A stretch of DNA of 64,000 bases, taken from NCBI GenBank assembly GCA_963800795.1, contig CAWDCJ010000013.1, positions 6,916-70,915 on the forward strand. The letters run 5' to 3'. A program made the translations under genes and the position numbers. This document shows positions 6,093 through 55,085 of the stretch, piece after piece. How positions within the stretch are numbered: the first letter of the stretch is position 1; every line of letters starts with the position of its first letter. The notes under the pieces were generated by a model. It had not been told where the DNA came from, ran no database searches, and saw only the letters and a program-made list of their open reading frames with translations. Origin of the DNA: an uncultured Chloroflexia bacterium (GTDB taxonomy: Bacteria > Chloroflexota > Limnocylindria > Limnocylindrales > CSP1-4).

Positions 6093-7928
6093 GTGCCCAT
6101 CGACCCCAACCAGGAATTCCTCGTCCAGCCGGTAGATGCGTCCTGGCTCCAGTGCAACATCGAGTGCCAGGAGGCCTGCCCTGTCGGCACGAATTGCCGC
6201 GGCTACCTGAACCTGGCCGCGGAGGGTCGGTTCGAGGAGGGCTATCTCCTTTCGCGCGAACCGAACCCCGTCGCCGCAATGTGCGCCTACGTCTGCTCCG
6301 CGCCATGCGAGCGGGCGTGCCGCCGCGGTGATATCGACCGGCCGCTCGCCATCCGGGCGATGAAGCGGTTCCTGGTCGAATGGCACGAGGCGTCCGGCAT
6401 CCCCGACGTCCTCCCGCCGATCACGCCGCGTGAAGAGCGCGTCGCGGTGGTGGGGGCCGGGCCGGCAGGCATCGCGGTTGCCCGTGAGCTCGCCGTCAAG
6501 GGGTACCGCGTCACCGTCTTCGACAGCCTCCCGTTCGCCGGCGGCACGATGCTGATCGGCGTGCCTGCCTTCCGGCTGCCTCGCGAGGCGATCGAGATGG
6601 ACGTACGGCTCGTGGAGCGGTTGGGCGTCACCTTCCGGTACAACACGAAGATCGGGCCGGATATCAGCTTCGAGACGCTCCTTCGCGACTTCGATTGCGT
6701 CGCGATCTGCGCCGGAGCGATGGACGCGGTGGGGCTCGACATTCCCGGGGCGGAGCTTGCCGGCGTGCAGTACGGCGTCGACTTCATGAAGAAGGCGAAC
6801 CTGGGCGAGCCGCTGGAAGTGGGTCGCAACGTGGTCGTGGTCGGCGGCGGCTACACGGCGATGGACTGTTCGCGGACCAGCCTGCGCCACGGTGCCGAGA
6901 ACGTCACGATCGCCTATCGCCGGACGCGCTCGGAGCTCGTCGTGGACGAGGAGGAGCTGGGCGAGACAGAGCGGGAGGGCGTCAGGATGGAGTTCCTGGT
7001 CAGCCCGATCGAGCTGGTCGGCGAGGATGGGAAGCTGACCGGCGTCCGCTTCATCCGCAACAAGCTCGGCGAGCCCGACGCCTCCGGCCGCCGTTCGCCG
7101 GTGCCCATTCCCGGCTCCGAGTTCGTCGTCCCAGCCGACACGGTCATCCCGGCCGTGTCCCAGGCCGCGGACCTCAGCTTCCTGCCCGTGGAGGCGACCT
7201 TCGAGGTGGCCCGGGGTCGCCTCAAGGTGGATCCGGCGACCTACGCCACGAACGTGCGCGGCGTCTTCGCCGCAGGCGACTTCGTGACCGGGCCGGCGAC
7301 CCTGATCGAGGCCGCCGGGCACGGCAAGAAATGCGCCTACGCGATCGATCGCTACCTGAGCGGGCGGGTCGACGTGACGGTGGCCGCCAACGTCAAGATC
7401 ACGTCGTCCTGGCGCCACGACATGCCGGAGTACTACGACGTGCTGCCGCGCCAGCACATCCCGATGCTGCCGGTCGAGGCGCGCATGGCATCCCGTGAGC
7501 CGGAGGTCAACTTCACCACCGGCGTGGAGCTGGGCTTCAGCGCAACGCACGCGGTTGCCGAGTCCACCCGTTGCTTGATGTGCAACTACAACATCTGGTT
7601 CGACCCGTTCCGGTGCGTCCTGTGCGGCGCCTGCGCCGACGTCTGCCCGGAGGGCGTCATCCACATGATCGACGTGAACCAGATGAAGTCCGAGGGGTTC
7701 CTGCCCGAGCTCGAGGAGGCTTACGGCTGGGACCAGGGCGCCGCCATGATCCTCGACGAGGAGCGCTGCATCCGCTGCGCTCTCTGCGTGAAGCGGTGTC
7801 CGTTCGACGCCATTACGATGGAGCGGTTCGAGCTCCAGGAGATCTCGACCGACGGTCGGCTCTACAAGGAGTCCTACCGGGACGCGCAGCTTGCCGGGAC
7901 GCCCGGCGTCGCAGGAGGGGCCAGGTGA
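6093..7928 (+). CDS. GltD-like NAD(P)H-dependent FAD/Fe-S oxidoreductase with C-terminal 2x[4Fe-4S] ferredoxin domain
   Basis: N-terminal Cys clusters (CNIECQEACPVGTNC, CAYVCSAPCERAC). Two Rossmann motifs (VAVVGAGPAGIA, VVVVGGGYTAMD) and VFAAGD. C-terminal CVLCGACADVCP and CIRCALCVKRCP. Stop overlaps the cytochrome b6 GTG start (GTGA). Confidence 0.85.
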   Translation: MPIDPNQEFLVQPVDASWLQCNIECQEACPVGTNCRGYLNLAAEGRFEEGYLLSREPNPVAAMCAYVCSAPCERACRRGDIDRPLAIRAMKRFLVEWHEASGIPDVLPPITPREERVAVVGAGPAGIAVARELAVKGYRVTVFDSLPFAGGTMLIGVPAFRLPREAIEMDVRLVERLGVTFRYNTKIGPDISFETLLRDFDCVAICAGAMDAVGLDIPGAELAGVQYGVDFMKKANLGEPLEVGRNVVVVGGGYTAMDCSRTSLRHGAENVTIAYRRTRSELVVDEEELGETEREGVRMEFLVSPIELVGEDGKLTGVRFIRNKLGEPDASGRRSPVPIPGSEFVVPADTVIPAVSQAADLSFLPVEATFEVARGRLKVDPATYATNVRGVFAAGDFVTGPATLIEAAGHGKKCAYAIDRYLSGRVDVTVAANVKITSSWRHDMPEYYDVLPRQHIPMLPVEARMASREPEVNFTTGVELGFSATHAVAESTRCLMCNYNIWFDPFRCVLCGACADVCPEGVIHMIDVNQMKSEGFLPELEEAYGWDQGAAMILDEERCIRCALCVKRCPFDAITMERFELQEISTDGRLYKESYRDAQLAGTPGVAGGAR

Positions 7929-8653
7929 GCTTCCTGGAGCGGGTGGATCAGACGATCCGGCGGAGCCCCGTCTTCCGGTCCATCTTCCGCAACCCGTACC
8001 CCAACGACGAGCGGTCGCGGGCGTACGCGGTGATGAACAACGTCTTCCTCCACCTGCACCCGGTCCGCGTGCGCCAGCATGCCGTGAAGTTCGCCTACAC
8101 CTTCTGCCTGGGCGGGCTCTCGTTCTTCCTGTTCCTGGTGCTCACGGTGACCGGCGTCTACCTGATGTTCTTCTACGCCCCGTCCGCCACCCAGGCGTAT
8201 TCGGACATCCTGCAGATCCAGTCCCAGGTGCCGTTCGGGCTGCTGACCCGCAACATCCACCGCTGGGCAGCCCACCTGATGGTGTTCTTCGTCTTCCTGC
8301 ACATGATGCGGGTCTTCTACCACGGCGCCTACAAGCCGCCCCGCGAGTTCAACTGGGTGGTGGGGGTCGTCCTGCTCTTCCTGACCCTTTTCCTGAGCTT
8401 CACCGGCTACCTGCTGCCGTGGGACCAGATCGCCTATTGGGCCATCACGATCGGCTCCAACATGGCCGGCTACGCGCCGCTCTTCAACACGCCCTCGAAG
8501 ACGCTGCTGCTGGCGGGACTGGAGGTGAGCGGCAACACCCTGCTCCGCTTCTACGTCCTCCACATCATGGTCTTCCCGTTAGTGGCGGCGGTCTTCCTGG
8601 CGGTGCACTTCTGGCGCATCCGCAAGGACGGCGGGATCTCGGGGCCGCTATGA
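7925..8653 (+). CDS. petB: cytochrome b6-like (N-terminal half of cytochrome b)
   Basis: From GTG 7925: VSFLERVD..NVFLHLHP..RNIHRWAAHLMVFFVFLHMMRVFYHGAYKPPRE..LLPWDQIAYWA. Four TM helices with the heme-ligand His pairs. Confidence 0.9.
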   Translation: MSFLERVDQTIRRSPVFRSIFRNPYPNDERSRAYAVMNNVFLHLHPVRVRQHAVKFAYTFCLGGLSFFLFLVLTVTGVYLMFFYAPSATQAYSDILQIQSQVPFGLLTRNIHRWAAHLMVFFVFLHMMRVFYHGAYKPPREFNWVVGVVLLFLTLFLSFTGYLLPWDQIAYWAITIGSNMAGYAPLFNTPSKTLLLAGLEVSGNTLLRFYVLHIMVFPLVAAVFLAVHFWRIRKDGGISGPL

Positions 8654-8721
8654 CGGCTCATCCCTTCGTTGGCACCTCCGCTCGCTCACTCACGCACGGC
8701 GAAGTGCGCTCGCTCGCGTGC

Positions 8722-8831
8722 TCGGCGCCGCCTTGGTCTGATCCCGTCCTCGCCGCCCCGAGGATGACTCGCTCGGTCGCGGCCCGCCGGTCGGCGCCGC
8801 CTTGGTCTGATCCTGTCCTCGCCGCCCCGAG
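8722..8831. repeat. 41-nt direct repeat, two copies (8722-8762 and 8791-8831), 1 mismatch
   Basis: TCGGCGCCGCCTTGGTCTGATCC(C/T)GTCCTCGCCGCCCCGAG occurs twice, 69 nt apart, in the 187-nt gap between the cytochrome b6 and subunit IV genes. Confidence 0.9.
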
Positions 8832-8840
8832 AGCCGTCGC

Positions 8841-9437
8841 ATGACGGAGCAGAAGGCACCGCCGGAGCGCCGCGTCGTGCTGCCGGTCGATCCCGCCCGC
8901 CGGACGGAGATCGACAAGCAACGGGTGCCGATGTCGGCCCGGCCGTATCGCCTGCTCGCGCTCGTGAAGCAGGACGCCGTGGTGCGCGTCCAGAAGGAAC
9001 CCGACGACACGGTCATGACCTGGCCGCACCTGCTCTCGATCGAGTTCCTGGCCGCCGTCTTCATGAGCATCTTCCTGCTGTTCATGGGCCTGTTCGTGAA
9101 CGCCCCGCTCGAGGAGCTCGCCAACGGGAACGTCACGCCTGAGGTGGCAAAGGCGCCCTGGTACTTCCTGGGGCTCCAGGAGCTCCTGGCCTACTTCCAC
9201 CCGACCGTCGCCGGCGCGCTCGTCCCGATCTTCGTGCTGGTCGGCGCGGCGCTGATCCCGTTCGTCGACCGCGAGAATGTCCGCGCCAACCGGCCCTCGG
9301 ACCGCAAGACCGCGGTCGTGCTCTTCTCGCTCTTCTGCGGTCTTGGGCTCGTCCTGACGTTCCTGGGTATCTTCTTCCGTGGCCCCGGCTACGCGTTCAC
9401 GCTGCCCTGGGTCAGCGGCTTCCACTTCAGTCTGTGA
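8841..9437 (+). CDS. petD: cytochrome b6f subunit IV-like (C-terminal part of cytochrome b)
   Basis: The ..VAKAPWYFLGLQELL.. motif (PEWY-type Qo site element) and three TM helices. Confidence 0.85.
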   Translation: MTEQKAPPERRVVLPVDPARRTEIDKQRVPMSARPYRLLALVKQDAVVRVQKEPDDTVMTWPHLLSIEFLAAVFMSIFLLFMGLFVNAPLEELANGNVTPEVAKAPWYFLGLQELLAYFHPTVAGALVPIFVLVGAALIPFVDRENVRANRPSDRKTAVVLFSLFCGLGLVLTFLGIFFRGPGYAFTLPWVSGFHFSL

Positions 9438-9444
9438 GCGTCCC

Positions 9445-10114
9445 ATGAGCAACTATCAGGTCGAACCCGCCAGCAAGCCCGGAGCCCTCACCAGCGAGGC
9501 GCTCAAGTCGATGCGCAACGAGGCGCCGAAGGGACTCTCGCGCCGGCAGCTCCTCCGAACGTCGCTCGGTGCGGGCGTGGGCCTCTGGCTCCTCGAAGTC
9601 TCCGCAGGCACCCTGGGGTTCCTGTGGCCCAACCTGTCGGGCGGATTCGGCGGCAAGGTCCCGCTGGGCTCGTTCACGGACGTCAAGAACGCGAACGCGC
9701 TGATCCCGTTCGGCGATGGGTACCCGGCCTACTACCAGGACGCGCGGTCGTTCATCGTGCTCGTGGACACCACTCGCCAGGAGTTCGTCCCGGGCGACGA
9801 TCCGACCGGCGACGGGACCGCCCTCAACGTGCGTGCCCTCTACCAGCGCTGCACGCACCTGGGCTGCAAGCCCAACTTCTGCGTCAAGAGCTACTGGTTC
9901 GAGTGCCCCTGCCACGGATCCCGCTACGATCGGTTGGGAACCAAGGTCAAGGAGCTCGGCCCGGCGCCGCGCTCGCTGGACCGGTTCGCGGTGAGCGTCG
10001 GCGGGCGACGGGAAGCTCACCCTCGACACGAGCAAGCTGACGCTCGGTCCGCTGCCCATAGCGCTGGGCCAGCCGGGTCTCATCCCATCGATGAGCCCGA
10101 CCGGCTGCATCTGA
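9445..10114 (+). CDS. petC: Rieske 2Fe-2S protein (1-nt frame break near 10003-10008)
   Basis: Twin-arginine signal SRRQLLRTSLGAG; CTHLGC and CPCHGS cluster boxes. A +1 slip after ..FAVSVGG reads the typical tail DGKLTLDTSKLTLGPLPIALGQPGLIPSMSPTGCI* (stop 10112-10114). Confidence 0.85.
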
Positions 10115-10142
10115 TCCGCATGACCACGACCGACGGCCTCCG

Positions 10143-11295
10143 ATGACCGAGCAGCCGGGCCAGCGCCCGGACGAGCGCCTGCCCGTCCCGCGTGAGCCGG
10201 ACCCGGTCGTCCCGCCGGAGCCGGGTGCGGTCGTCCCGCGCGAGCCCGCGGAGGTGGATCGGTTCACCGCGCACCCGAGCGCGCACACGGCCGGGCTGAC
10301 GCCCGAACGCGCCGCGAAGATCGTCAGCCAGAGCGCCAGCGCGCGCTGGGTCGCCTTCCTGGCCGTCACGATCGTCTCCCTGTTCGTGATCGTCTACTAC
10401 TTCTACGACCTCGGCGTCCCCGGCGTCGCGAACTCCAGCCGCTTTGGCCAACGAGGTCGCCGCCCAGCAGGTCACGGCCGTGACGCAGGGGTACGCGCTG
10501 TTCGAGGCGAACTGCGCGCGCTGCCACGGCGCCCAGGGCCAGGGCGGGATCGGGCCGACCCTCAACGACCAGGCCAAGCTGCTGACCCACCTCACGCCGG
10601 GCTACCTGCAGAGCGTCCTCACGGTGGGTGGCCGCTACGTGTGCGGTGACCCGAACTCGCTGATGCCGATCTGGTCGGACCAGGGCAACCCGCCCGGGCC
10701 GTTGAACTACCGGAACCTCCAGGAGCTGATCGCGTTCATCACGGCCCCGTCCACCCTGCAGTTCCAGGGCGTCGACCCGACCACCGGCCAGACCGTCACC
10801 ATGTCCGGCTGGCGCGACCCGAGCTACGTCCTCCCGGCGGGCGCCACCCCGGTTCCAGCGTGCTGGAAGGACGCGTTCACCTCGGCCTCTTCGCCCGCGG
10901 CCAGCGCGGCCCCCAGCGCCGGGGCCAGCGGGGCGCCGAGCGCGGCCCCAGCGAGCGCGGCGCCCTCCGGCAGCCCGGCCGGCTCGCCCGGCCGCATCCG
11001 GCGGCGCCGCGGAGACGGTCCTCCAGCTGGCGGCGGCGAACATCGCCTACGACCAGACCGACCTGACCGCCCCGGCGGGGGTCCCGTTCCAGATCGCGTT
11101 CACCAACAACGACGCGGGGATCCCCCACAACGTCTCGATCCACCAGGGCTCGCCGACCGGCACGGAGGTCTTCAAGGGCACGATCTTCACGGGCGTGGCC
11201 ACCCAGACCTACGACGTGCCGGCGCTCCCCGCCGGGACGTACAGCTTCGTCTGCTCGGTCCACCCGAACATGGCGGCACGCTCACGGTCAAGTAG
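10143..11295 (+). CDS. membrane-anchored monoheme cytochrome c fused to an amicyanin-like cupredoxin domain (frame breaks near 10441, ~10990, ~11272)
   Basis: TM helix WVAFLAVTIVSLFVIVYYF. Heme box CARCH with SLMPIW. Ala/Pro/Ser linker. Then FQIAFTNNDAGIPHNVSIH..YSFVCSVHPNMAGTLTVK* (His, Cys-x2-His-x2-Met copper ligands). Confidence 0.8.

Positions 11296-44879: not shown

Positions 44880-44883
<4 letters not shown>
43813..44883 (-). CDS. ABC transporter ATP-binding protein (DrrA/ABC-2 type)
   Basis: GPNGAGKTTT, LSGGEKQRLSLALAL, LLILDEPTAGMD, TTHEL. Start MTAARG (ATG 44881-44883) overlaps the TlpA-like stop. Confidence 0.9.
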
Positions 44884-45440
<557 letters not shown>

Positions 45441-45510: not shown

Positions 45511-45888
45511 CTACTTGACCGTCAGGGTGCCGACCATGTTCGGATGGACGGAGCAGACGAAGGTGTACGTGCCGGCCGGCAGGGCCGGCACGTCATAGGT
45601 CCGGGCCCCGGTCCCGGTGAAGATCTCGCCCTTGAAGACCTCCGTGCCGGTGGCCGAGCCCGCATGGATCGAGACGTTGTGGGGGATCCCCGCGTCGTTG
45701 TTCGTGAAGTCGATCTGGAAGGGCGTGTTGGCGGGCGCCGAGAGGTCGGTCTTGTCGTAGGCGATCCCGCTCGCGGTGAGCTGGAGCGCGACCGCGGCGC
45801 CGGGCGCTGCGCTCGCCGCCGGCGATCCGGCCGCCGGCGCCGGATCCGGCCGCCGCGCTTGCCGCGGGTGCCGCGGACGGGGAGGGCG
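45511..45888. repeat. copy 1 of a ~380-bp duplicated block (cupredoxin module + linker)
   Basis: 45511-45839 matches 49247-49575 base for base except one position (45595 A vs 49331 G). A further ~50 nt are similar, with a 7-nt indel. Confidence 0.9.
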
Positions 45889-46737
45889 CCGTACCGGCGC
45901 CGGCCGCCGCGGCCGGGCCCGGGGACGCTGCCACGCTCGCTGCGGGTTCCCTCGGCGGCACGATCCCTTCCGCGACGAGCACGCTCAGGACGAGGATCGC
46001 GCCGAACAGGAGCAGCGTCCCGGTGGGGAAGCGCGGGGCGGGAATGTTCTCGAGATGGCCCGTGGCGTCCGCCCGCACCGTCTCGCGGTACTCGGCCCGC
46101 GCGTCGCGCAGCCAGCCCAGGAGGGCAACCACGAGCATCACCACGCCGCCGCTGAGGATCGCGACGTTGAGGACCCCGCCGACGACCATCACGGATGCCG
46201 CCAAGGCCAGGATGAACGGCCGGAAGCTCGGCCCCGGCATGTGCACCCCGGCGGGCGGTCCCGGGTGCACGACCGCGGGCAGGGCGGTCGGCGCCTCGAG
46301 CGCGTCGTATTCGCGACTGGCCTCGCGCCCCCAGTACGAGCAGGCCGGACAGGAGCGCCAGGAGGCCGATCGCGATCGCGAGGAGGCCGGGCGGCTGGAT
46401 CGTCCACGACGTGGAGTCCGCGATCGGCTGCTTGGTCGCCGGATCCACCTGCGGGACCGACGTGGACGAAGAGGATCGCGAGGAAGAAGCAGGCGAAACC
46501 CGCCGCCGCCAGGAACGGGGCGAGGCTGGGCCCCGGCATATGGATGTGCGCCGGCGTGGGCGTCGCGGGCAGCGGCCGCGTCCGCGTTGGTGGCGCGGTG
46601 AGCGCCCGCCGCATGATCCAGCCGAGGTAGGCCACGACGAGCGCCGCGACCGCGAGCGGGATCAGCGCAACCAGCGCACCCCAGTCCGGCGAGACCAGCT
46701 GGTTGAGCAGGGCGAGGAGCGAATTCCAGGGCGACAT
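45511..46737 (-). CDS. membrane protein with two tandem CoxIII-N-terminal-like 2-TM modules fused to an amicyanin-like cupredoxin (three frame breaks)
   Basis: HIHMPGPSLAPFLAAAGFACFFLAILF and GVHMPGPSFRPFILALAASVMVVGGVL resemble the H-x-H-M-x-x-P-S-x-x-P start of canonical oxidase subunit III. An Ala/Pro/Ser linker follows. C-terminus FQIDFTNNDAGIPHNVSIH..YTFVCSVHPNMVGTLTVK* (stop 45511-45513). Confidence 0.65.
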
Positions 46738-46761
46738 GGACTGCCGGATCGCCGCGCCGCG

Positions 46762-46944
46762 CTACTCGGTCTCGTCGCCGCGCGGTGAGGCGGTCATCAG
46801 GACGAAGGCCAGCATCCCCATCGAGAGGCCCAGGGCCAGCAGGAGCGTCACGCCGATCCATTCGTGGCTGACCAGCCCGTAGGAGACGCCGAGCCCGATG
46901 AAGATCAGACCGATGAGCATCGCTCGGCGCGGCCGCATGATCAT
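46762..46944 (-). CDS. small 2-TM oxidase-cluster protein (subunit IV-like)
   Basis: MIMRPRRAMLIGLIFIGLGVSYGLVSHEWIGVTLLLALGLSMGMLAFVLMTASPRGDETE. Call rests on position between ctaE and the CoxIII-N-like gene. Confidence 0.5.
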   Translation of the reverse strand: MIMRPRRAMLIGLIFIGLGVSYGLVSHEWIGVTLLLALGLSMGMLAFVLMTASPRGDETE

Positions 46945-46963
46945 GCGCGCGATCCCTCCATGA

Positions 46964-47600
46964 TCAGAGCAGGTAGAGCGTCGAGAAGAGTGCGATCCAG
47001 ACGACGTCCACGAAGTGCCAGTAGATGGAGGTCGCCTCCACCGCGTCGTGGTGCTTGGCCGAGAACTGCCCGGACATCCCGCGGTAGAGCACGACGCTGA
47101 GCATGATCGCACCGCCCAGGACGTGCGCGCCGTGGAAGCCCGTCAGCGTGTAGAACGTGCTGCCGAACGCCGTGTCGGTGATCCCGAACCCGAGCTGCGT
47201 GTAGTCGTAGATCTGGCCGATCAGGAAGATCAGCCCGAGGACCAGGGTGATCCCGGTGTTGCGAAGGAAGCCCGTCCGATCGCCGCGCCGGATGGACCAC
47301 ACTCCCAGCTGCATTGTCACCGAGGAGAGCACGAGGACCATCGTCAGGGTCGCCGGAAGCAGGATCTCGTGGTGGATCTGGAAGGGCTCGAACGGCGCCT
47401 CGTTCACGAGGGGCGGCCACTGCGTCGCGTTCAGGCGAACGTTGAAGTAGGCGGCGAAGAGGCCCGCGAAGAACATCACCTCGGAGGTGATGAACAGGAT
47501 CATCCCCAGGATCGGGTTGCTGATTCCCCGCTGGCCGTGCGCCCGGCTCTCGCCCGGGACACCGGCGCGTGCGTGCCAGGGCCGTGCTGCTCGTCGTCAT
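46964..47600 (-). CDS. ctaE: cytochrome c oxidase subunit III, 5-helix form (frame break near 47585)
   Basis: LGMILFITSEVMFFAGLF, TLTGFHGAHVLGG, YWHFVDVVWI. ATG at 47598-47600 lies in another frame, 2 nt after the ctaD stop. Confidence 0.85.
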
Positions 47601-47602
47601 GC

Positions 47603-49237
47603 TCAGTGCCCCGCCGGAAGCGCCGGCACGTCGTTGGCGTGGCGGAGGTCGAAGACCGGTCGCTCGGAACGGATCGGCGGGAGGTGGTCGAAGTTGTACG
47701 GCGGTGGCGGGGACGAGGTCGCCCACTCCAGGGTGTTCCCCTCCCACGGGTCGTCGCCGGCGGGCTCGCCGGAGCGCAGCGTGATGAAGACGTTCCACAG
47801 GAACGGCAGCATCGCGACCGCGATCGTGAAGCCCCCGATCGTGGCAAGCAGGTTCAGATCGTTCCAGCCGGCGGTGGCGCTGTAGTCGGCGATACGGCGC
47901 GGCATCCCGGACAGGCCCAGCAGGTGCATCGGGAAGAAGGTCAGGTTCATCCCGATGAAGATCCCGACGAAGTGGATCTTGCCCAGGGTCTCGTTCAGCT
48001 TCCGGCCGAACATCTTCGGCCACCAGTAGTAGAGCCCCGCGAAGACGCCCATGATCGAGCCGCCGAACAGCACGTAGTGGATGTGGGCGACGATGAAATA
48101 GGTCGCGTGGACGTGGTAGTCGACCGGCACGGCGGCCAGGACCGCGCCGTTGATCCCGCCGATCAGGAACAGCGAGAGGAAGCCAACCGCGAAGAGCATC
48201 GCGGACGTGAAGCGGAGCTTGCCCCGGAACATCGTGGCGACCCAGTTGAACATCTTCACGCCGGTCGGCACCGCGATCAGGAACGTCATCAGGCTGAAGA
48301 ACGGCAGGTAGACGGTCCCCGTCGTGAACATGTGGTGGGCCCAGACCGAGAAGCCGAGCGCGCCGATCCCCGCGGTCGCGAAGATGAACGCCTTGTAGCC
48401 AAAGAGCGGCTTCCGACTGAAGGTCGGCAGCACCTCGGAGACGATCCCCATGGCGGGCAGGATCATGATGTAGACGGCCGGGTGGCTATAGAACCAGAAG
48501 ACGTTCTGCCACAGGATCGCGTTGCCGCCCAGCGCGGTGTTGAAGAAGCTTCCGCCGAGATTCCGGTCGATGTAGAGCATGATCAGGGCGCTCGTCAGGA
48601 CCGGGGTTCCCATCAGCACGAGCACGCTCGTGACGAGCATCGTCCAGACGAAGATCGGCATCCGGAAGAGGGTCATCCCCGGCGCCCGCATCTTGAAGAT
48701 CGTCACCAGGAAGTTGATGGCGCCCAGGATGGAGCTGGTGCCGACCAGCGTGAGCGCGACGATCCAAAGGTCCGTCCCAGGCCCCTTGGAGAACGCCGAT
48801 TCAGCCAGCGGGCTGTAGCTGGTCCAGCCCTCCGCGGCCGCGCCGCCGAGCGGGAAGCCCAGCAGGGCGATCAGCGCCGAGAGCGGCAGCAGCCAGAACG
48901 ACAGGGCGTTGATGCGTGGGAACGCCATGTCCGGCGCGCCGATCATCAGCGGGACGAGGTAGTTACCGAAGCCCGCCAGGAACGGGATGACCACCCAGAA
49001 GATCATCACCGAGGCGTGCATGGTGAACATCTGGTTGTAGGTGGCCTCGCTCATGAACTGGAGCCCGGGCTGGGCCAGCTCGGTGCGAACCGCCAGCGCG
49101 AAGAGTCCACCGACCAGGAACAGGATCAGCGAGTTGAACGTGTAGAGGATCCCGATCTTCTTGTGATCGGTCGTGGTGAGCCATTCGTAGAGCCCGGTCC
49201 GGTAGGTGGCCGCGGGGCGCAGCACGGTGGTGGCCAT
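47603..49237 (-). CDS. ctaD: cytochrome c oxidase subunit I (aa3 type)
   Basis: TTDHKKIGILY, MAFPRINALSFW, WTSYSPL, FWFYSHPAVYIMILP, WAHHMFTTG, HFHYVL-type IVAHIHYVL. Confidence 0.95.
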   Translation of the reverse strand: MATTVLRPAATYRTGLYEWLTTTDHKKIGILYTFNSLILFLVGGLFALAVRTELAQPGLQFMSEATYNQMFTMHASVMIFWVVIPFLAGFGNYLVPLMIGAPDMAFPRINALSFWLLPLSALIALLGFPLGGAAAEGWTSYSPLAESAFSKGPGTDLWIVALTLVGTSSILGAINFLVTIFKMRAPGMTLFRMPIFVWTMLVTSVLVLMGTPVLTSALIMLYIDRNLGGSFFNTALGGNAILWQNVFWFYSHPAVYIMILPAMGIVSEVLPTFSRKPLFGYKAFIFATAGIGALGFSVWAHHMFTTGTVYLPFFSLMTFLIAVPTGVKMFNWVATMFRGKLRFTSAMLFAVGFLSLFLIGGINGAVLAAVPVDYHVHATYFIVAHIHYVLFGGSIMGVFAGLYYWWPKMFGRKLNETLGKIHFVGIFIGMNLTFFPMHLLGLSGMPRRIADYSATAGWNDLNLLATIGGFTIAVAMLPFLWNVFITLRSGEPAGDDPWEGNTLEWATSSPPPPYNFDHLPPIRSERPVFDLRHANDVPALPAGH

Positions 49238-49246
49238 CAGGGTCTC

Positions 49247-49631
49247 CTACTTGACCGTCAGGGTGCCGACCATGTTCGGATGGACGGAGCAGACGAAGGT
49301 GTACGTGCCGGCCGGCAGGGCCGGCACGTCGTAGGTCCGGGCCCCGGTCCCGGTGAAGATCTCGCCCTTGAAGACCTCCGTGCCGGTGGCCGAGCCCGCA
49401 TGGATCGAGACGTTGTGGGGGATCCCCGCGTCGTTGTTCGTGAAGTCGATCTGGAAGGGCGTGTTGGCGGGCGCCGAGAGGTCGGTCTTGTCGTAGGCGA
49501 TCCCGCTCGCGGTGAGCTGGAGCGCGACCGCGGCGCCGGGCGCTGCGCTCGCCGCCGGCGATCCGGCCGCCGGCGACGGCCGCCCGATCCGGCCGCCGCG
49601 CTCGCCGCGGGTGCCGCGGACGGGGAGGGCG
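49247..49631. repeat. copy 2 of the ~380-bp duplicated block
   Basis: See copy 1 (45511-45888). Confidence 0.9.
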
Positions 49632-50454
49632 GCGGTGCGAGCTGTTGCTGGAGCCAGGCGTCGTAGTCGGCCTTCGATTCGACCTGCACCTGGAACTCCA
49701 TGAACTCGTGGTAGAGGCCGCAGAACTGGGTGCACTGGCCGCGGTAGGTCCCGATCCGATCCGCGGTGAACTGGATCACCTGGTCCTTGCCGGGCGTGAT
49801 GTCGCGCTGGTACAGGAAGGCCGGGACGTAGAACGAGTGGATCACGTCCATGGAATGCAGCTGGAGCTCCACCGTCTCGTTCACCGGGACGTGCATGATC
49901 GGCGGCGACCAGCCCGTGCGGTCACCTCCCGACGGGAGCGTTCCGAAGACGGTCACGCACTTGCCCTGGTTCGCTTGCGCGTTGCAGTCCTGCCACGCCA
50001 CGCCGTCAGGTGCGTAGACGAACTGCCACTGCCACTGGTAGGCGACCACCCCGATGCGGATCGGAGGCGTGGGCGTATGTGCGTCGACCGTGTTGAGCGT
50101 CTGCCATGAGAGCGCGAACAGGGCCAGCACGATCGCAATGGGGATGGCGGTCCAGACGATCTCCAGCCGGTTGTTGCCGTGGATCTGCGGCGGCAGCTCA
50201 TCGTCGCCGTCCCGCCGGCGATAGCGCAGGACCGCGAACAGGATCAGGCCTTCCACCAGCACGAAGATCGCGACACCGATCGCGAAGATGACGAGGTAGA
50301 GGTTTCGCGTGGCTTCGCCCTGGACCGAGGCCGCTTCCGGCGGGAGGGCCGTCCGCAGGTTGAAGTCCGAGCAGGCGGAGACGAGGAGCGCGATGGCACC
50401 GAGCGCCGCGAGCGTCCCGACGCGGCGGACCCATCGCTTCGCTGTCTGACCCAT
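49247..50454 (-). CDS. ctaC: cytochrome c oxidase subunit II (CuA) fused to a C-terminal amicyanin-like cupredoxin (frame break near 49576-49595)
   Basis: Lipobox-like LLVSAC, two TM helices, DVIHSFYVP, CuA loop CTQFCGLYHEFM. Then an Ala/Pro/Ser linker and the cupredoxin ..IPHNVSIH..FVCSVHPNMVGTLTVK*. Confidence 0.85.
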
Positions 50455-50740
50455 GGGTGTGGTAGACCTCGTGCAGCTGGCGCGGCGCTCCACCGGGACG
50501 CGTCCGGTGGTCCCTCCTCGCATCGCTCCGGCTCCGGGGACGGCGGAGAGGCGGAAGCGCGGGCATGATACCCGAAGTGCCCGAAAACATGCGCAGATGC
50601 GCACGCTGGCGTGGACGTTGTTCCCGCCTCCGGGACGAGGCGGGCCGGCGACGCCACCGTTCGGGGCCGCTTCGCGCCACAATCGCCCCGTGACCGCCCC
50701 CGACTCACCCGCCGCGTCCGGCCCGGCCGGGTTCCGCCGC

Positions 50741-51760
50741 ATGTGCCCGGGCCCCCGCCGCTGGTTCCCAGCCGGGTCGGTGCTGCTCGCCCTGCTCGCG
50801 GGTGCTCCGGTCGTGTCCGCCCACGGGACCGGCGTGCCTTCCGCCCCGGACGCCGCGGGGTTGGTGCTCGGCTGGTCCTTCGACCCGACGATCTGGCTCC
50901 CTCTCGCGATCGCCGCCGCCGCCTACCTGTGGGCCGTCCGACGGGTCAACGCGGCTCACCCGGCGCACCCGGTCCCCGCGGATCGGCCCGCGTTCTTCCT
51001 GCTTGGGCTCGCCGCGATCGCGATCGCCCTTCAGTCCGGTATCGAGCGCTACGACACGACGCTGTTCTCGCTGCACATGGTTCAGCACGTGATCCTGATC
51101 TTCCTCGCCGCGCCGGCGATCGTGCTGTCGGCCCCGATCACGCTGATCCTGCGAGTCGCATCGCCCCGGGTGCGGCAACGGTGGGTCCTGCCCATCCTCG
51201 ACTCGCGCGCGGTCAGGGTGATCGGCCACCCGCTCGTCGCGTGGGTCCTCTTCACCGCCGTGATGTGGGGCACCCACTTCTCGCCGCTCTTCGATGCCGC
51301 GCTCGAGAACGTCTGGCTGCACGACCTGGAGCACGTGCTCTACCTGGTCAGCTCGGTGCTCTTCTGGATGCCGATCGTGGGCCGCGACCCGAGCCCATGG
51401 CGGATGGGCTACCCGGCGCGCCTCCTCTACCTGTTCGTCCAGATGCCGCTCAACTCGTTCCTCGGGGTCGCGATCCTCTATTCCGGGATCGATCCTCTAC
51501 CCCCATTACGCGACCACGGTCGCCTGTGGGGTCCTTCGCCGCTGCAGGACCAGCAGGCGGCCGGCGCGATCATGTGGGGGCTCGGCGACGCCGGGTTCCT
51601 GGTCGCCCTGCTCCTCGTCATCGCCGCGTGGATGCGCTTCGACGAGGCCGCCACGCGCCGCCGCGAGTCGGCCGAGGATGCCCGGATGACGACCCGTGCC
51701 GCCGGGGCGGAGGCGGGGAGCGCGGCGACTGCCGCCAACCCGAGGCTCCCGTCCCCCTGA
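50741..51760 (+). CDS. ctaG: cytochrome c oxidase assembly factor CtaG (caa3-CtaG family; compensated frame-break pair near 51485-51525)
   Basis: Multi-TM protein with HMVQHVILIFLAAP, HDLEHVLYL and QQAAGAIMW motifs. Start ATG 50741 inside track ORF 50453..51760. Confidence 0.8.
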   Translation: MCPGPRRWFPAGSVLLALLAGAPVVSAHGTGVPSAPDAAGLVLGWSFDPTIWLPLAIAAAAYLWAVRRVNAAHPAHPVPADRPAFFLLGLAAIAIALQSGIERYDTTLFSLHMVQHVILIFLAAPAIVLSAPITLILRVASPRVRQRWVLPILDSRAVRVIGHPLVAWVLFTAVMWGTHFSPLFDAALENVWLHDLEHVLYLVSSVLFWMPIVGRDPSPWRMGYPARLLYLFVQMPLNSFLGVAILYSGIDPLPPLRDHGRLWGPSPLQDQQAAGAIMWGLGDAGFLVALLLVIAAWMRFDEAATRRRESAEDARMTTRAAGAEAGSAATAANPRLPSP

Positions 51761-51763
51761 GGG

Positions 51764-52759
51764 ATCAGGCCGGGATCGGTGCCCGGAGATAGGCGAGGTA
51801 GCGCTCCGGGTCGACGTTGCCGCCCGAGACGACGGCCACCACCGTGCCCTGGGCCAGCGGCAGCCCCAGGTCGTGCGGCATGGAAGCGGAGCGCCGCGAT
51901 CGTCAGGGCCCCGGATGGCTCCACGACCAGGCGCGCCTCCTCGGCCCCCAGCCGGACGCCGGCCGCGATCTCGACCTCCGAGACGGTCACGATGCCGTCC
52001 AGGTGGGCGCGCAGGTGGGCGAACGTGCGGGCACCCAGCGCCTGGGTCCGCGTTCCATCGGCGATGGTCCGCGAGACGTCGGCCGCCGACCACTCCACGA
52101 TTCGACCCAGCTCCAGCGATTCGCGGGCGTCGGCGGCGAGCTCCGGCTCCACGCCGATCACACGGGCCGAAGGATGGAGCGCCTTCACCGCCACCGCCAC
52201 GCCGCTGGCCAGCCCGCCGCCGCCGATCGGCACGATCACGAGCGCCAGGTCTTCGACGTCCTCCGCGATCTCCAGGCCGCAGGTTCCCTGGCCGGCGATG
52301 ATGCGATCGTCGTCGAAGGGCGGGATGATCGTCGAGGCCGCGCTCAGCGGCGATGCGTTCGGCGACGGCCTGCCGCTCGGCGCTGGCCGGCCCCACCGTC
52401 ACGACCTCGGCGCCGTCGTCGAGGACCCTGGCGCGCTTGATCGCCGGGGCGTTGTCCGGCATGACCACGACGGCGGGGCAGCCCAGCAGGCGGGCGGCAC
52501 GGGCCACGCCCTGGGCATGGTTGCCCGACGAGTACGTGATGACGCCGCGCCGCAGCTCGGACGGCCCCAGCGAGGCGATGGCCGTGTACGCGCCGCGAAG
52601 CTTGAACGCCCCGATCGGCTGGAGCGACTCCGCCTTGAGGAGCTGCCCGCGCGCCGGATCGCCGAACGCCACGAGGGGTGTCCGGGCGGCGACCCCGCGC
52701 AGCACGATGGCGGCCTCGCGGATACGGTCGAGGCCGACCAATGCGCCGGCAGCGCTCAT
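51764..52759 (-). CDS. PLP-dependent threonine/serine dehydratase, short form (frame breaks near 52300 and 51880)
   Basis: ESLQPIGAFKLRGA (PLP Lys), TYSSGNHAQG, VIVPIGGGGLASG. Own reading of the tail is ..VVSGGNVDPERYLAYLRAPIPA* (stop 51764-51766). Confidence 0.8.
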
Positions 52760-52802
52760 CGGCAGGCTTGCCGGAGAACGGGCTGCTGCCGGGAGCGCTC
52801 GC

Positions 52803-53150
52803 TCAATGGGCGTGGCTGCCGCAGGCAACGCACGTCGTCGCCCACGGGACCAGCTCCTGGCGCTCGGCCGGGATCGCGGCGCCGCACGTCTCGCAGGTCG
52901 GGTAGGTTCCCGCGGCAAGGCGCGCGAGGGCATGGTCGACGGCGTGGAGCCGGCGTTCGGCCTGCTCACGCAGGGCAAGGTCGCGCTGCTGGGCGAAGAC
53001 ATGCGATGCCGCGGCGGCCTGCGAGCCGTAGGTCATCTGACCGGGCGCCTCGATCTCCTCGCCGAGCTCGGCGAGGAGGCCTGTCCGCACGTCCTGGAGG
53101 CGCGCGCGCGCGGTGGCGATCCGATCCGTGTCTGCAGTCACGCCGTCCAT
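52803..53150 (-). CDS. DksA/TraR-family C4 zinc-finger protein
   Basis: C-terminus YPTCETCGAAIPAERQELVPWATTCVACG after a coiled-coil region. Start MDGVTAD inside track ORF 52803..53303. Confidence 0.75.
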   Translation of the reverse strand: MDGVTADTDRIATARARLQDVRTGLLAELGEEIEAPGQMTYGSQAAAASHVFAQQRDLALREQAERRLHAVDHALARLAAGTYPTCETCGAAIPAERQELVPWATTCVACGSHAH

Positions 53151-53241
53151 GCTACGCCGCCCCTGCGAGCATCGCACCCCTGCCCGTATACTCCCGGGGA
53201 GTACCGGGCTCGAGACCGGAGGCATCCCAGGAGGCGGCACC

Positions 53242-53415
53242 ATGGCAGTTGCGATCGACCCGGTCTGCGGCATGGAGGTCGACACGGAGACGGCGACCCT
53301 CACGAGCGAGCACGAGGGGACGACCTACTACTTCTGCGGCAAGGGCTGCAAGCTCGACTTCGACGAGGACCCGGACACCTACCTCGATCCCGCCTACACC
53401 CCTCACGGCATGTGA
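53242..53415 (+). CDS. YHS/TRASH-domain metal-binding mini-protein
   Basis: MAVAIDPVCGMEVD..YYFCGKGCKLDFDEDP. GGAGG Shine-Dalgarno about 8 nt upstream. Confidence 0.75.
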   Translation: MAVAIDPVCGMEVDTETATLTSEHEGTTYYFCGKGCKLDFDEDPDTYLDPAYTPHGM

Positions 53416-53469
53416 CCGACGGCGGTCGATGGGCGCGGGCCCGTCACCGCCGTGCTCTTGCCGCGCCGG

Positions 53470-54114
53470 TCAGGCCCACTCCTTGATGATGAGGTCGGCG
53501 CGACCTCGACTGGTCGCGACGAGCCTCGCGTTTGGGCCGTCGGTGGTGGCCGCCCAGGCCGCCGCGTCGTCTCGACTCCGCCCGTACCGCATGTGGCGTT
53601 CGATCAGCCACTGCTCGCGATCCTCGCCGCCGGGATCCAGGTACCAGGCCTCGGCGAGGAGCTCCGGCATCCCGGGCCCAGGGGCCGGGGTCGAGCAGGA
53701 GGTAGTTGCCTTCGGCGATCACCATGGGCAGGTCGGAGCGGGATAGCGATGGCGCCCGCGATCGGCTCCTCGATCTGGCGACGGAACTCGGGCGCATACC
53801 CCGTGCCGGTGCCTCGTCTTGATCCGCCGCAGAAGCGCTACGTACCCGGCTGCGTCGAAGGTGTCCGGCGCGCCCTTGCGTGACTGGCGACCGAGCCGGA
53901 CGAGCTCGGAGTTCGCGAGATGGAAGCCATCCATCGGCAGGCCGACCGCCAATCCCTGAATGTGGCCGACGAGCGCCGCTGAGAGCGTTGACTTCCCTGC
54001 GCCCGGTGGGCCGGTCATGCCCAGGATCACTCGGCCGCTCGATACCGCAAGACGGCGGGCCCGATCCACCAGGTCCGCGAGGGTGACGCGCACCGCAACC
54101 GGCGAGTCCGTCAT
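53470..54114 (-). CDS. P-loop nucleoside/sugar kinase-like protein (PRK/uridine-kinase fold, FrcK-like; 2-3 frame breaks)
   Basis: ILGMTGPPGAGKST (Walker A), LPMDGFH, VIAEGNYLLLD, and the C-terminus in track ORF 53470..53670. Confidence 0.65.
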
Positions 54115-54161
54115 GGGCCGTCCGACGCACGGCCCGCGAGCGATATCGTCACTGGCGCGGG

Positions 54162-55085
54162 TCAGGCTGGCGGCCAGCCCCCGAGCTGCGCGAGGGTCGG
54201 CGGGTCGGCGCCCGGGCGCTCGCAGACCATCGCGGAGGCGCGGACGGCGAACCGGACCGCGCGCAGGACGGCCGCCGGCTCCGCGACGGCCTCGCGCCCG
54301 CCCCCGCCCGCGAGCAGGCACGCGAGGAACGCGCCGCCGAACGTGTCCCCCGCCCCGACGGTGTCGACGACCGTGACCGCTGGCGCCTCCACCTCGGACA
54401 CGGCGCCGTCGATCCACGCCCGCACCGGCCGGGCGCCATCCGTGATCAGCACGACCCGCGGCCCGAGCGCCGCCACGCGCCGCGCCGCCTCGTCGGCAGA
54501 CTCGCCGGGCACGAGGAACGCCAGGTCCTCGGTGCTCACCTTCACGACGTCGGCCCGCGCGAGCACGCGGCAGATCCGCGCCCGGAACCCGTCGGGATCG
54601 CGGATGATCGAAGGTCGGCAGTTGGGATCGACCATCAGCAGCACGTCGTCCGGGAGTGCCGCGACGAGCGCCTCGAATGTCGTGGCCATCGGCTCGAGCA
54701 CGAGGCCGAGTGTCCCGACGTGGACCGCCCGGGTGGACCCCGGAAGCCCGGCGGCGAGCGCCTCGGCCGTCACGGCGGGCGCGGACGTGCTGTCCACGTA
54801 GAACCGGTAGGTCGCCGCGCCGCCGTCGTCGAGCTCGGCGACGGCGAGCGTCGTCGGCAGGTCGGTACGCCTGGCGAGCGCGAGCGAGACCCCGTCGTCC
54901 GCGAGCCCATCCTCGAGCACCCGCCCGAAGTGGTCGCGCGACAACCCGCCGAGCCATGCCACCTCGACCCCGAGGCGCCCGATGGCGCGCGCCGTGTTGT
55001 ACGGCCCCCCGCCGGCCACGGGGACCAGCTGGCCGTCCGGGCGCACGATGAGATCGATCAGGGCCTCACCGGCAACGACGATCAC
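54162..55085 (-). CDS. PfkB-family carbohydrate kinase (fructokinase-like)
   Basis: GGGPYNTA, DPNCRP, and the C-terminal DTVGAGDTFGGAFL signature. Confidence 0.85.
   Translation of the reverse strand: MIVVAGEALIDLIVRPDGQLVPVAGGGPYNTARAIGRLGVEVAWLGGLSRDHFGRVLEDGLADDGVSLALARRTDLPTTLAVAELDDGGAATYRFYVDSTSAPAVTAEALAAGLPGSTRAVHVGTLGLVLEPMATTFEALVAALPDDVLLMVDPNCRPSIIRDPDGFRARICRVLARADVVKVSTEDLAFLVPGESADEAARRVAALGPRVVLITDGARPVRAWIDGAVSEVEAPAVTVVDTVGAGDTFGGAFLACLLAGGGGREAVAEPAAVLRAVRFAVRASAMVCERPGADPPTLAQLGGWPPA

What the first reader, a model, noticed from the sequence alone, without database searches (positions are those of the whole stretch)
49247..50454. CuA subunit II carries a C-terminal type-1 cupredoxin where caa3 oxidases carry cytochrome c
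After the CuA loop CTQFCGLYHEFM and the end of the subunit II fold, an Ala/Pro/Ser linker leads into ..FQIDFTNNDAGIPHNVSIH..FVCSVHPNMVGTLTVK. Fusion of the electron donor to subunit II is well known for cytochrome c (caa3). A blue-copper equivalent is much less familiar. It would place two different copper centres on one subunit.
Basis: partly seen in the sequence, partly recalled or inferred. Interest (0 to 1): 0.62.

Follow-up and report, generated by a model that had tools for sequence, protein, structure and literature searches.

The report
Oxidase subunit II with tethered blue-copper domain
This is the gene for subunit II of a respiratory oxygen reductase that, in a group of uncultured soil bacteria, carries an extra blue-copper electron-carrier domain on a flexible tether; in this particular sequence the gene is split by a frame error that is most likely an assembly artefact.

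Summary
The two parts are real. Window 50454..~49579 (minus strand) encodes a lipoprotein CuA subunit II (CtaC). Window ~49579..49247 encodes an Ala/Pro/Ser linker and a type-1 cupredoxin with His/Cys/His/Met ligands. As sequenced they lie in different frames.

The break is a 26-nt imperfect repeat (49573-49598) that the closest genome (about 98% identical) lacks. At least eight other conserved genes in the window are also frame-broken but intact in relatives, so the break is most likely an assembly error added to real variation in linker length. There are not two genes: the cupredoxin has no start codon, signal peptide or promoter.

Orthologues are fused in frame in 64 of 80 Limnocylindria (Chloroflexota) species genomes, and in at least 25 Actinomycetota MAGs. 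The domain folds like auracyanin.

Near-identical cupredoxin modules also end two other proteins in the window: a subunit-IV-like membrane protein in the same operon, and the cytochrome c subunit of the bc complex.

Best reading: a tethered blue-copper relay from complex III to CuA, analogous to the cytochrome c domain of caa3 oxidases. I found no paper describing it, though databases already hold hundreds of copies. Interest is moderate.

The parts
49579..50454 (-). ctaC, N-terminal frame. It holds a lipoprotein signal (LLVSAC), two TM helices, the CuA cupredoxin domain (H206, C241, C245, H249, M252) and the first part of the Ala/Pro/Ser linker.
   Evidence: Pfam COX2_TM and COX2. TIGR02866 CoxB scores 176.7 bits against a cut-off of 147.7. 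CuA ligands are invariant in alignment A1. Foldseek best matches are mycobacterial CtaC and Thermus caa3 subunit II.
49699..49734 (-). CuA loop CTQFCGLYHEFM
   Evidence: Read directly from the sequence. C241, C245, H249 and M252 are invariant.
49573..49598 (-). The 26-nt extra segment that breaks the frame. It consists of a 14-nt perfect direct repeat, CGGCGGCCGGATCG, plus a 12-nt degenerate copy. One more C at about 49579 would restore ...AAGSGGPSPAAGSPAAS...
   Evidence: The window-versus-L004 alignment shows a single 26-nt gap.
49247..49579 (-). Rest of the linker plus the type-1 (auracyanin/amicyanin-like) cupredoxin domain, in the -1 frame. Ligands are His 49417-49415, Cys 49291-49289, His 49282-49280 and Met 49273-49271. 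The stop codon is at 49249-49247.
   Evidence: Pfam PF13473 and PF00127. Ligands align with amicyanin. AF2 model pLDDT is 94.9, and the best PDB folds are auracyanins at TMq 0.81-0.82.
47603..49237 (-). ctaD, oxidase subunit I, starting 10 nt after the cupredoxin stop codon
   Evidence: Pfam COX1 3.3e-164. Protein is 98% identical to the L001 orthologue.
46964..47600 (-). ctaE, subunit III. Its N-terminal ~15 residues are lost to a frame break (extra C at 47573).
   Evidence: Pfam COX3. tblastn and indel list.
46765..46944 (-). 60-aa two-helix protein with a faint resemblance to the N-terminal half of subunit IV
   Evidence: Syntenic in L001 and L004. PF12270 scores 15.8 bits, below cut-off.
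45511..46737 (-). 'cup400': a polytopic membrane protein, weakly subunit-IV-like, ending in the same linker and cupredoxin module. It is split over four frame pieces in the window.
   Evidence: The orthologues are intact: 400 aa in L001, about 401 aa in L004. Pfam cupredoxin, plus Cyt_c_ox_IV at 22.2 bits, below cut-off. The repeat 45511-45810 matches 49247-49546.
44880..45440 (-). TlpA-like thiol-disulfide oxidoreductase lipoprotein. A role as a CuA assembly helper is inferred.
   Evidence: Pfam AhpC-TSA and Redoxin. Syntenic in L001 and L003.
50741..51760 (+). ctaG (Caa3_CtaG family assembly factor), transcribed divergently
   Evidence: Pfam PF09678 7.6e-71. tblastn.
7571..10146 (+). bc-complex genes: cytochrome b6-like, subunit IV (PetD-like) and Rieske
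   Evidence: Pfam Cytochrome_B, Cytochrom_B_C and Rieske.
10143..11295 (+). Membrane-anchored monoheme cytochrome c (CARCH at 10513-10527) fused through an Ala/Pro/Ser linker to a third cupredoxin copy. It is split over three frames in the window.
   Evidence: Three-frame translation. Pfam cytochrome c. All 120 listed clusters carry cytochrome c, and all but a few truncated ones also carry a cupredoxin domain in one ORF.

Best explanation
The locus is ctaC of an A-family (aa3-type) heme-copper oxidase operon in a Limnocylindria (Chloroflexota) soil bacterium.

In this lineage CtaC is a lipoprotein built in this order:
- two membrane helices;
- the CuA domain;
- a disordered Ala/Pro/Ser linker of about 20-70 residues;
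- a C-terminal auracyanin/amicyanin-like type-1 copper domain.

The frame break in the window is most likely a one-base assembly error inside a real, strain-specific linker expansion. It is not a gene boundary.

Functionally (inferred), the tethered blue-copper domain is the electron-entry shuttle for CuA. That is the role played by the fused cytochrome c domain in caa3 oxidases and by the swinging second heme domain of QcrC in actinobacterial bcc-aa3 supercomplexes.

The same module also ends the cytochrome c subunit of the bc complex and a subunit-IV-like protein of the cta operon. The proposed electron path is therefore: Rieske, then heme c, then tethered T1 Cu (one or more near-identical domains, possibly by self-exchange), then CuA, then heme a, then heme a3-CuB.

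Shown: domain identities, ligand sets, in-frame fusion in relatives, operon context, and the three module copies. Inferred: copper occupancy, direction and route of electron transfer, and that the break is an artefact.
For: - Domains and ligands.
- In-frame fusion in relatives: more than 100 clusters; 64 of 80 genome loci; nearest genome L004 is in frame and lacks exactly 49573-49598.
- Artefact reading:
  - tblastn with proteins from a short-read scaffold gives one frame per gene in L004. In the window, PALP, ctaC, ctaE, cup400 and the ABC gene are split.
  - The window-versus-L004 alignment has 58 gap openings, none a multiple of 3.
  - The cyt c-cupredoxin gene is split three ways.
  - The other out-of-frame loci (L031, L033) are also 'MFD' MAGs on long contigs.
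  - The paralogous linker in cup400 carries a different non-triplet insertion of 19 nt at the same spot.
- Not a separate gene: no start codon or signal peptide, and no promoter-like or terminator-like site.
- Relay model:
  - All three T1 motifs in the window sit at the C-termini of respiratory-chain membrane proteins.
  - The cyt c-cupredoxin fusion is conserved in frame.
  - The linker is predicted to be disordered.
  - The subunit II fold is closest to mycobacterial CtaC of the bcc:aa3 supercomplex.
- Precedent for blue copper donating to oxidases, including a halocyanin-subunit IIa fusion: PMC3128077 and PMC8305020.
Against: - As sequenced the gene is broken, and no public run holds this sequence (best run holds 26% of its words), so reads could not confirm an error.
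- The extra segment is 26 nt, not a single base, so at least part of it is a real difference.
- The exact junction, with 0-2 extra bases allowed, was not found in JGI metagenome contigs or GTDB genomes.
- Five relatives have a ctaC ORF that stops after the linker, with no cupredoxin found. An unfused form may therefore exist.
- No biochemical data exist for any member. The copper content, the redox potential and the partner of the domain are all unknown.
Confidence: 0.72

Rival explanations
1. The frame break is a real mutation. In this strain CtaC ends in about 107 residues of out-of-frame tail, and the cupredoxin domain is not made (a decaying or truncated gene).
For: The 26-nt imperfect tandem repeat looks like a replication-slippage product in a repeat-prone linker. 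Linker length varies widely between close relatives. Five relatives have ORFs that stop after the linker.
Against: The same window would then need at least eight further independent frameshifts, in ctaE, cup400, PALP, the ABC gene and the cyt c-cupredoxin gene. Yet their protein pieces remain 89-98% identical to intact orthologues. The cupredoxin codons show no decay: there is 1 difference in the first 329 nt against its paralogue, and the ligands are intact.
Confidence: 0.13
2. The domain is fused and made, but it is not the electron donor to CuA. It might serve copper handling for CuA/CuB assembly, or pass electrons to or from a different partner.
For: The operon is flanked by assembly factors (CtaG, a TlpA-like protein) and a YHS metal-binding protein lies nearby. 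No functional data exist.
Against: The full type-1 ligand set (His, Cys, His, Met) and the auracyanin-like fold are those of electron carriers, not of PCuAC/Sco chaperones. The same module is attached to the cytochrome c subunit of the bc complex, which fits electron relay and not assembly.
Confidence: 0.1
3. Programmed -1 ribosomal frameshifting in the linker produces both a short CtaC and a fused CtaC-cupredoxin.
For: The shift needed is exactly -1, at a G/C-rich repeat.
Against: There is no X XXY YYZ slippery heptamer at the junction (TCG GGC GGC CGT). Orthologues are in frame. The paralogous break in cup400 would need +1 rather than -1.
Confidence: 0.02
4. Two independent genes: ctaC, followed by a separate small blue-copper protein gene.
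For: Two frames are present in the window.
Against: The only start codon in the cupredoxin frame is a GTG inside the CuA loop. It would give an Arg-rich leader with no signal peptide or anchor, although the domain must be extracytoplasmic. There are no promoter-like or terminator-like sites. Relatives have a single ORF.
Confidence: 0.01

Closest known systems
[quoted passage not shown] Thermus thermophilus 2yev chain B; Bacillus CtaC)
   Same: It has the same N-terminal architecture (TM helices plus a CuA cupredoxin) and the same logic of fusing the one-electron donor to the C-terminus of subunit II. 2yev_B is among the best structural matches.
   Different: The fused domain here is a type-1 copper cupredoxin, not a heme c domain. 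The ORF has no CxxCH motif. The connection is a long, disordered Ala/Pro/Ser tether.
Actinobacterial CtaC in the bcc-aa3 supercomplex (Mycobacterium, Corynebacterium)
   Same: It is the best structural match (7e1v_Q, 7.4e-16) and the top NCBIfam model (aa3_CtaC_Actin). It is a lipoprotein, and no soluble carrier is needed because the donor is tethered.
   Different: In actinobacteria the tethered donor is the second heme domain of di-heme QcrC. Here the complex III cytochrome c is monoheme and carries a cupredoxin, and CtaC carries its own cupredoxin. The score is below that model's cut-off (214.5 against 250).
Auracyanins of Chloroflexus/Roseiflexus (membrane-anchored blue copper carriers)
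   Same: They are the closest fold to the C-terminal domain (6kol, 2aan, 1qhq; TMq 0.81-0.82) and the best PDB sequence hit (1ov8, 2e-5). They come from the same phylum and are likewise tethered to the membrane.
   Different: Auracyanins are separate proteins of about 140 residues with their own anchor, and they work with alternative complex III. Here the domain is about 95 residues with an amicyanin-like short C-x2-H-x2-M loop, and it is fused to oxidase and bc-complex subunits.
Halocyanin-CbaD (subunit IIa) fusion of haloarchaeal ba3 oxidases (Halobacterium OE_4073R, Haloarcula)
   Same: A blue copper carrier is covalently joined to a subunit of the terminal oxidase it is thought to reduce (PMC3128077, PMC8305020).
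   Different: That fusion is archaeal and in a B-family oxidase. The fusion partner is the single-helix subunit IIa, with halocyanin at the N-terminus. It does not place T1 Cu and CuA on one polypeptide.
Cupredoxins in the rus operon of Acidithiobacillus (rusticyanin, AcoP); sulfocyanin of the Sulfolobus SoxM complex
   Same: Cupredoxins are encoded with aa3-type oxidase genes and act as donors or partners of the oxidase (PMC8239418 and PMC10804444 for rus/AcoP; sulfocyanin from my own knowledge).
   Different: These are separate polypeptides from acidophiles, with different cupredoxin subfamilies.

Membership tests
[quoted passage not shown] | N-terminal pair of transmembrane helices (COX2_TM) | tested here: met
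   PF02790 scores 39 bits against a cut-off of 22.8. The AF2 model of the orthologue has helices at 44-77 and 95-121.
[quoted passage not shown] | CuA ligand pattern H-x34-C-x3-C-x3-H-x2-M | tested here: met
   H206, C241, C245, H249 and M252 are present in the window and invariant in alignments A1 and A2.
[quoted passage not shown] | Score above the curated family cut-off | tested here: met
   TIGR02866 scores 176.7 bits against 147.7. PF00116 scores 55.2 against 22.
[quoted passage not shown] | Encoded next to subunits I and III | tested here: met
   ctaD lies at 49237-47603 and ctaE at ~47600-46964, immediately downstream.
Type-1 (blue) copper cupredoxin, plastocyanin/azurin family (PF00127; auracyanin/amicyanin-like) | Family profile match above cut-off | tested here: met
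   PF00127 scores 30.5 bits against 21.2, and PF13473 scores 38.3 against 27. The specific equivalog models amicyanin (29.3 against 110) and plastocyanin (19.9 against 88) are NOT reached, so this is neither of those two named proteins.
Type-1 (blue) copper cupredoxin, plastocyanin/azurin family (PF00127; auracyanin/amicyanin-like) | His...Cys-x2-His-x2-Met ligand set at canonical positions | tested here: met
   PHNV and C-S-V-H-P-N-M align with the PHNV and C-T-P-H-P-F-M of amicyanin 1id2. H, C, H and M are invariant in 30 sequences.
Type-1 (blue) copper cupredoxin, plastocyanin/azurin family (PF00127; auracyanin/amicyanin-like) | Greek-key beta-sandwich fold | tested here: met
   The AF2 model has pLDDT 94.9 and eight strands. 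Foldseek top hits are auracyanins, amicyanin and plastocyanin.
Type-1 (blue) copper cupredoxin, plastocyanin/azurin family (PF00127; auracyanin/amicyanin-like) | Binds one Cu with the blue ~600 nm band and a small A-parallel EPR signal | not testable with these tools
   This needs purified protein.
caa3-type oxidase subunit II (cytochrome c fusion) | C-terminal heme c domain with CxxCH | tested here: not met
   There is no cytochrome c Pfam hit in ctaC. The only credible CxxCH in the window is in the bc operon. A true COX2-cyt c fusion (P0387, CIACH) aligns differently.
Programmed -1 ribosomal frameshift site | Slippery heptamer X XXY YYZ, and an out-of-frame arrangement conserved in relatives | tested here: not met
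   The junction reads TCG GGC GGC CGT. Relatives are in frame.
Single continuous ctaC-cupredoxin ORF (the fusion itself) in THIS window | Both domains in one reading frame | tested here: not met
   The frames differ by -1, because of the 26 extra nt at 49573-49598. This is judged an assembly error because many other genes are broken in the same way, but it could not be verified against reads.

The most novel reading that the evidence does not exclude
Limnocylindria, and a set of uncultured Actinomycetota, run their aerobic chain on a fully tethered blue-copper relay in place of a soluble or heme-only carrier.

- Nearly identical type-1 copper modules sit on flexible Ala/Pro/Ser arms, attached to the complex III cytochrome c subunit, to CuA subunit II and to a subunit-IV-like protein.
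- The modules pass electrons by T1-to-T1 self-exchange within a bc-aa3 supercomplex.
- Gene conversion keeps the modules identical.
- The result would be a subunit II carrying three copper atoms in two different centre types.
Probability: 0.35. Interest if true: 0.6.

Novelty: new variant of a known kind. Interest (0 to 1): 0.42.

Why it matters
If the tethered domain is the donor to CuA, it is a natural copper-for-heme replacement of the caa3 design. It would put a blue (T1) centre and a purple (CuA) centre on one polypeptide.

- It would give a compact, self-contained system for studying Cu-to-Cu intramolecular electron transfer.
- Together with the cytochrome c-cupredoxin subunit of the bc complex, it suggests how abundant, uncultured soil Chloroflexota and Actinomycetota wire complex III to complex IV without a diffusible carrier.
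- It also bears on the copper demand of these organisms.

For genome annotation the practical lesson is narrower. The low-complexity linkers of these genes are places where short-read assemblies stop and long-read assemblies pick up frame errors, so the fusion is easily mis-called as a truncated COX2.

Tried and rejected
- Testing the frame break with reads. No public run holds the window; the best holds 26% of its words. Contigs of the four best runs all stop in the linker, with depth 0 at 49534-49574. The window's own called protein, P0021, is not on record in the contig index.
- Searching for the exact insertion junction, allowing 0-2 extra bases. There were no matches in JGI metagenome contigs or GTDB genomes. 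I could not show that an in-frame 27-nt allele exists.
- Literature. I also read five papers. None describes a COX2 C-terminal type-1 cupredoxin. The nearest is the halocyanin-subunit IIa fusion.
- A profile of very divergent fused proteins was too variable for the locus finder. A smaller profile worked.
- Foldseek on the full-length model returned only COX2 chains, so the C-terminal domain was modelled and searched on its own.
- Considered and rejected: programmed frameshifting, two separate genes, and a PCuAC/Sco-type chaperone identity for the domain. Reasons are given under the rival explanations.
- Names for divergent representatives were mostly unavailable. The taxonomic spread therefore rests on the record titles of genome loci.

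Full report
**1. What is in the sequence**

On the minus strand an ORF starts at ATG 50454. It encodes, in order:
- a lipoprotein signal (LLVSAC);
- two hydrophobic helices;
- a COX2 domain with the CuA loop CTQFCGLYHEFM.

Pfam gives COX2_TM at 39 bits and COX2 at 55.2 bits. NCBIfam TIGR02866 (CoxB) scores 176.7 bits against a cut-off of 147.7. After the domain comes [21 protein letters not shown], and then the frame runs into about 107 residues of Arg/Pro/Ser-rich text, ending at 49258.

In the frame offset by -1 the sequence reads PSPAAGSPAASAAPGAAVALQLTASGIAYDK...FTNNDAGIPHNVSIH...FVCSVHPNMVGTLTVK, with a stop at 49249-49247. This part matches Cupredoxin_1 (38.3 bits) and Copper-bind (30.5 bits), both above cut-off. 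As sequenced, the window does not encode one polypeptide.

**2. Nature of the break**

The closest genome locus is L004 (CAWFBS010000016.1, an 'MFD' soil MAG). Across the gene it differs from the window by 27 substitutions and a single 26-nt gap, at window 49573-49598. L004 reads through in frame (...AASAAAGSPAASTAPGAAVALQL...).

The extra 26 nt are a perfect 14-nt direct repeat (CGGCGGCCGGATCG) plus a 12-nt degenerate copy. Because 26 is 2 mod 3, the frame is lost. One additional C at about 49579 would give ...AAGSGGPSPAAGSPAAS... More distant relatives (about 90% DNA identity) differ in the same stretch by other indels. Linker length is very variable in general, and one homologue carries multiple ASAGAGAPA repeats.

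**3. Why I read the break as an artefact**

- I took the proteins of a short-read scaffold (L001) and ran tblastn against both sequences. In L004 every gene is a single frame. In the window several genes are split:
  - the PALP gene is in three frames;
  - ctaC is in two;
  - ctaE has lost its first ~15 residues (extra C at 47573);
  - the downstream 400-aa gene is in four pieces;
  - the last residues of the ABC gene are unmatched, near extra bases at ~43843.
- The window-versus-L004 alignment has 58 gap openings over 12.3 kb, none a multiple of three.
- A further gene at 10143-11295 is split across three frames, one break lying inside its copper loop.
- The protein pieces remain 89-98% identical to intact orthologues, which is not what decaying genes look like.
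- Among 80 species-level loci, the only two others with the cupredoxin in a different frame (L031, L033) are also MFD MAGs on long contigs. Six short-read contigs simply end at the linker, and public short-read contigs all break there too.
- The paralogous linker in the downstream gene carries a different non-triplet insertion (19 nt) at the same spot. That fits a real linker expansion read with one-base errors.

I could not verify this with reads, because no public run holds the sequence.

**4. Not two genes, not programmed frameshifting**

- The cupredoxin frame has no start codon other than a GTG inside the CuA loop, and no signal peptide or anchor.
- There is no promoter-like or terminator-like site between the parts.
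- The junction (TCG GGC GGC CGT) is not a slippery heptamer, relatives are in frame, and the paralogous break would need the opposite shift.

**5. The fusion is a conserved architecture**

- A search with the frame-repaired protein found 1,630 homologues among the candidates scored. Of the best 120 clusters, nearly all full-length ones carry PF02790 + PF00116 + PF13473/PF00127 in one protein. The few that are named are Candidatus Limnocylindrales.
- In genome loci, 64 of 80 have the CuA and T1 motifs in one ORF.
- An exhaustive profile search returned 25,284 proteins at E up to 0.001. About 35 of the top 150 representatives (50% identity level) span the whole profile.
- Members down to 30% identity keep both ligand sets.
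- A second genome scan found the same single-ORF architecture in at least 25 uncultured Actinomycetota MAG species. These have a C-x2-H-G-P-x-M copper loop and short, partly Cys-containing linkers.
- Five relatives have a ctaC that stops after the linker. Whether that is a natural unfused form or a misassembly is open.

**6. The domains**

- CuA ligands H206, C241, C245, H249 and M252 are invariant.
- The T1 ligands align with those of amicyanin (PHNV; C-x2-H-x2-M) and are invariant across 30 sequences.
- An AlphaFold model of an 88%-identical orthologue shows helices, the CuA sandwich, a disordered stretch at 277-309 (pLDDT below 50) and a confident C-terminal sandwich.
- Modelled alone, the window's domain reaches pLDDT 94.9. 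Its best PDB neighbours are the auracyanins of Roseiflexus and Chloroflexus (TMq 0.81-0.82), followed by amicyanin, plastocyanin and rusticyanin.
- The subunit II part is closest to mycobacterial CtaC in the bcc:aa3 supercomplex and to Thermus caa3 subunit II.

**7. Context that shapes the mechanism**

The operon on the minus strand, in order, is:
- ctaC-cupredoxin;
- ctaD;
- ctaE;
- a 60-aa two-helix protein;
- a ~400-aa polytopic membrane protein ('cup400'), with weak similarity to subunit IV below cut-off;
- a TlpA-like thioredoxin;
- an ABC transporter.

ctaG is transcribed divergently upstream.

cup400 ends in the same linker and cupredoxin. Window 45511-45843 and 49247-49579 differ at 2 of 333 positions. 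In L004 the two copies are identical, while in the more distant L001 they differ at 77 of 333. The module has therefore been homogenised recently by gene conversion.

A third copy, about 80% identical, ends a membrane-anchored monoheme cytochrome c. That gene follows the cytochrome b6, subunit IV and Rieske genes at 7571-11295. The cytochrome c-cupredoxin fusion is in frame in nearly all of the 120 listed clusters. A motif scan finds no other T1 site and only one credible CxxCH in the window.

**8. Mechanism**

The best-supported model is that the tethered T1 domain delivers electrons to CuA. This is the role of the fused cytochrome c in caa3 oxidases, and of the mobile heme domain of QcrC in actinobacteria. 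With the module also present on the complex III cytochrome c subunit and on cup400, electrons would pass in this order:
1. heme c;
2. one or more near-identical T1 domains;
3. CuA.

The sequence, fold and synteny facts are shown. Copper binding, redox potentials, docking and direction of transfer are inferred, from established knowledge that auracyanin, halocyanin, plastocyanin, rusticyanin and sulfocyanin serve as one-electron carriers to terminal oxidases or reaction centres. A copper-handling role is less likely, given the canonical T1 ligand set and the attachment to a cytochrome c.

**9. Comparison and novelty**

- It is a member of the CoxB/CtaC family, with all tested features met.
- Its extra domain is a member of the plastocyanin/azurin cupredoxin family, but it is not amicyanin or plastocyanin proper, since those equivalog cut-offs are not reached.
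- It is not a caa3 subunit II, because it has no heme c motif.
- The nearest published analogue I found is the halocyanin-subunit IIa (CbaD) fusion in haloarchaeal ba3 oxidases (PMC3128077, PMC8305020).
- Six full-text searches found no description of a type-1 cupredoxin fused to the CuA subunit. However, hundreds of such proteins already sit in public databases with both Pfam domains assigned.

I therefore rate it a new variant of a known kind, of moderate interest. The specific copy in this window is a frame-broken and probably mis-assembled representative.

Noticed in passing
window 43800-55400 and 10143-11295: The window is rich in one-base indels relative to its nearest relative. Conserved genes are split between frames: PALP (~52325, ~51875), ctaE (47573), cup400 (46451, 46337, ~45830), the ABC gene (~43843), and the cyt c-cupredoxin gene (three frames). 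This points to an error-prone, probably long-read, assembly.
   Followed up: yes
window 45511-45843 vs 49247-49579: The linker-plus-cupredoxin module is duplicated with 2 mismatches in 333 nt. The copies are identical in L004 but differ at 77 of 333 positions in L001. This indicates recent gene conversion between ctaC and the downstream membrane protein gene.
   Followed up: yes
window 45511-46737 (minus): 'cup400' is a polytopic membrane protein with a repeated H[IM]PGPS motif and a below-threshold match to Cyt_c_ox_IV. It ends in a tethered cupredoxin and may be an extra oxidase subunit.
   Followed up: partly
window 7571-11295 (plus): A bc-complex operon (cytochrome b6-like, subunit IV, Rieske) whose cytochrome c subunit is monoheme and fused to a C-terminal cupredoxin. 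The fusion is conserved in frame in nearly all of the 120 best clusters, which sources name 'plastocyanin/cytochrome c553'.
   Followed up: yes
L024, L027, L028, L035, L036: In these relatives the ctaC ORF stops right after the Ala/Pro/Ser linker, and no cupredoxin is found downstream. This could be a natural unfused form or a misassembly at a repeated module.
   Followed up: no
L084-L103, L110, L119, L134-L140: Uncultured Actinomycetota MAGs carry the same CuA + T1 single-ORF architecture. Many have a C-x2-H-G-P-x-M loop (L084-L103) and short linkers, so the fusion is not confined to Chloroflexota.
   Followed up: partly
P0004 and other homologues; window 49540-49640: The linker is hypervariable in length, with tandem ASAGAGAPA-type expansions. 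Short-read contigs of related soil and peat metagenomes end there.
   Followed up: partly
window 11195-12848 (plus): A Kelch-repeat (beta-propeller) protein gene directly follows the bc operon. It appears to be split between two ORFs (11195-12289 and 12195-12848).
   Followed up: no
window 53113-53415 (plus): A small YHS/TRASH-type metal-binding protein (57 aa in relatives) is conserved two to three genes from ctaG. A link to copper handling is possible.
   Followed up: no
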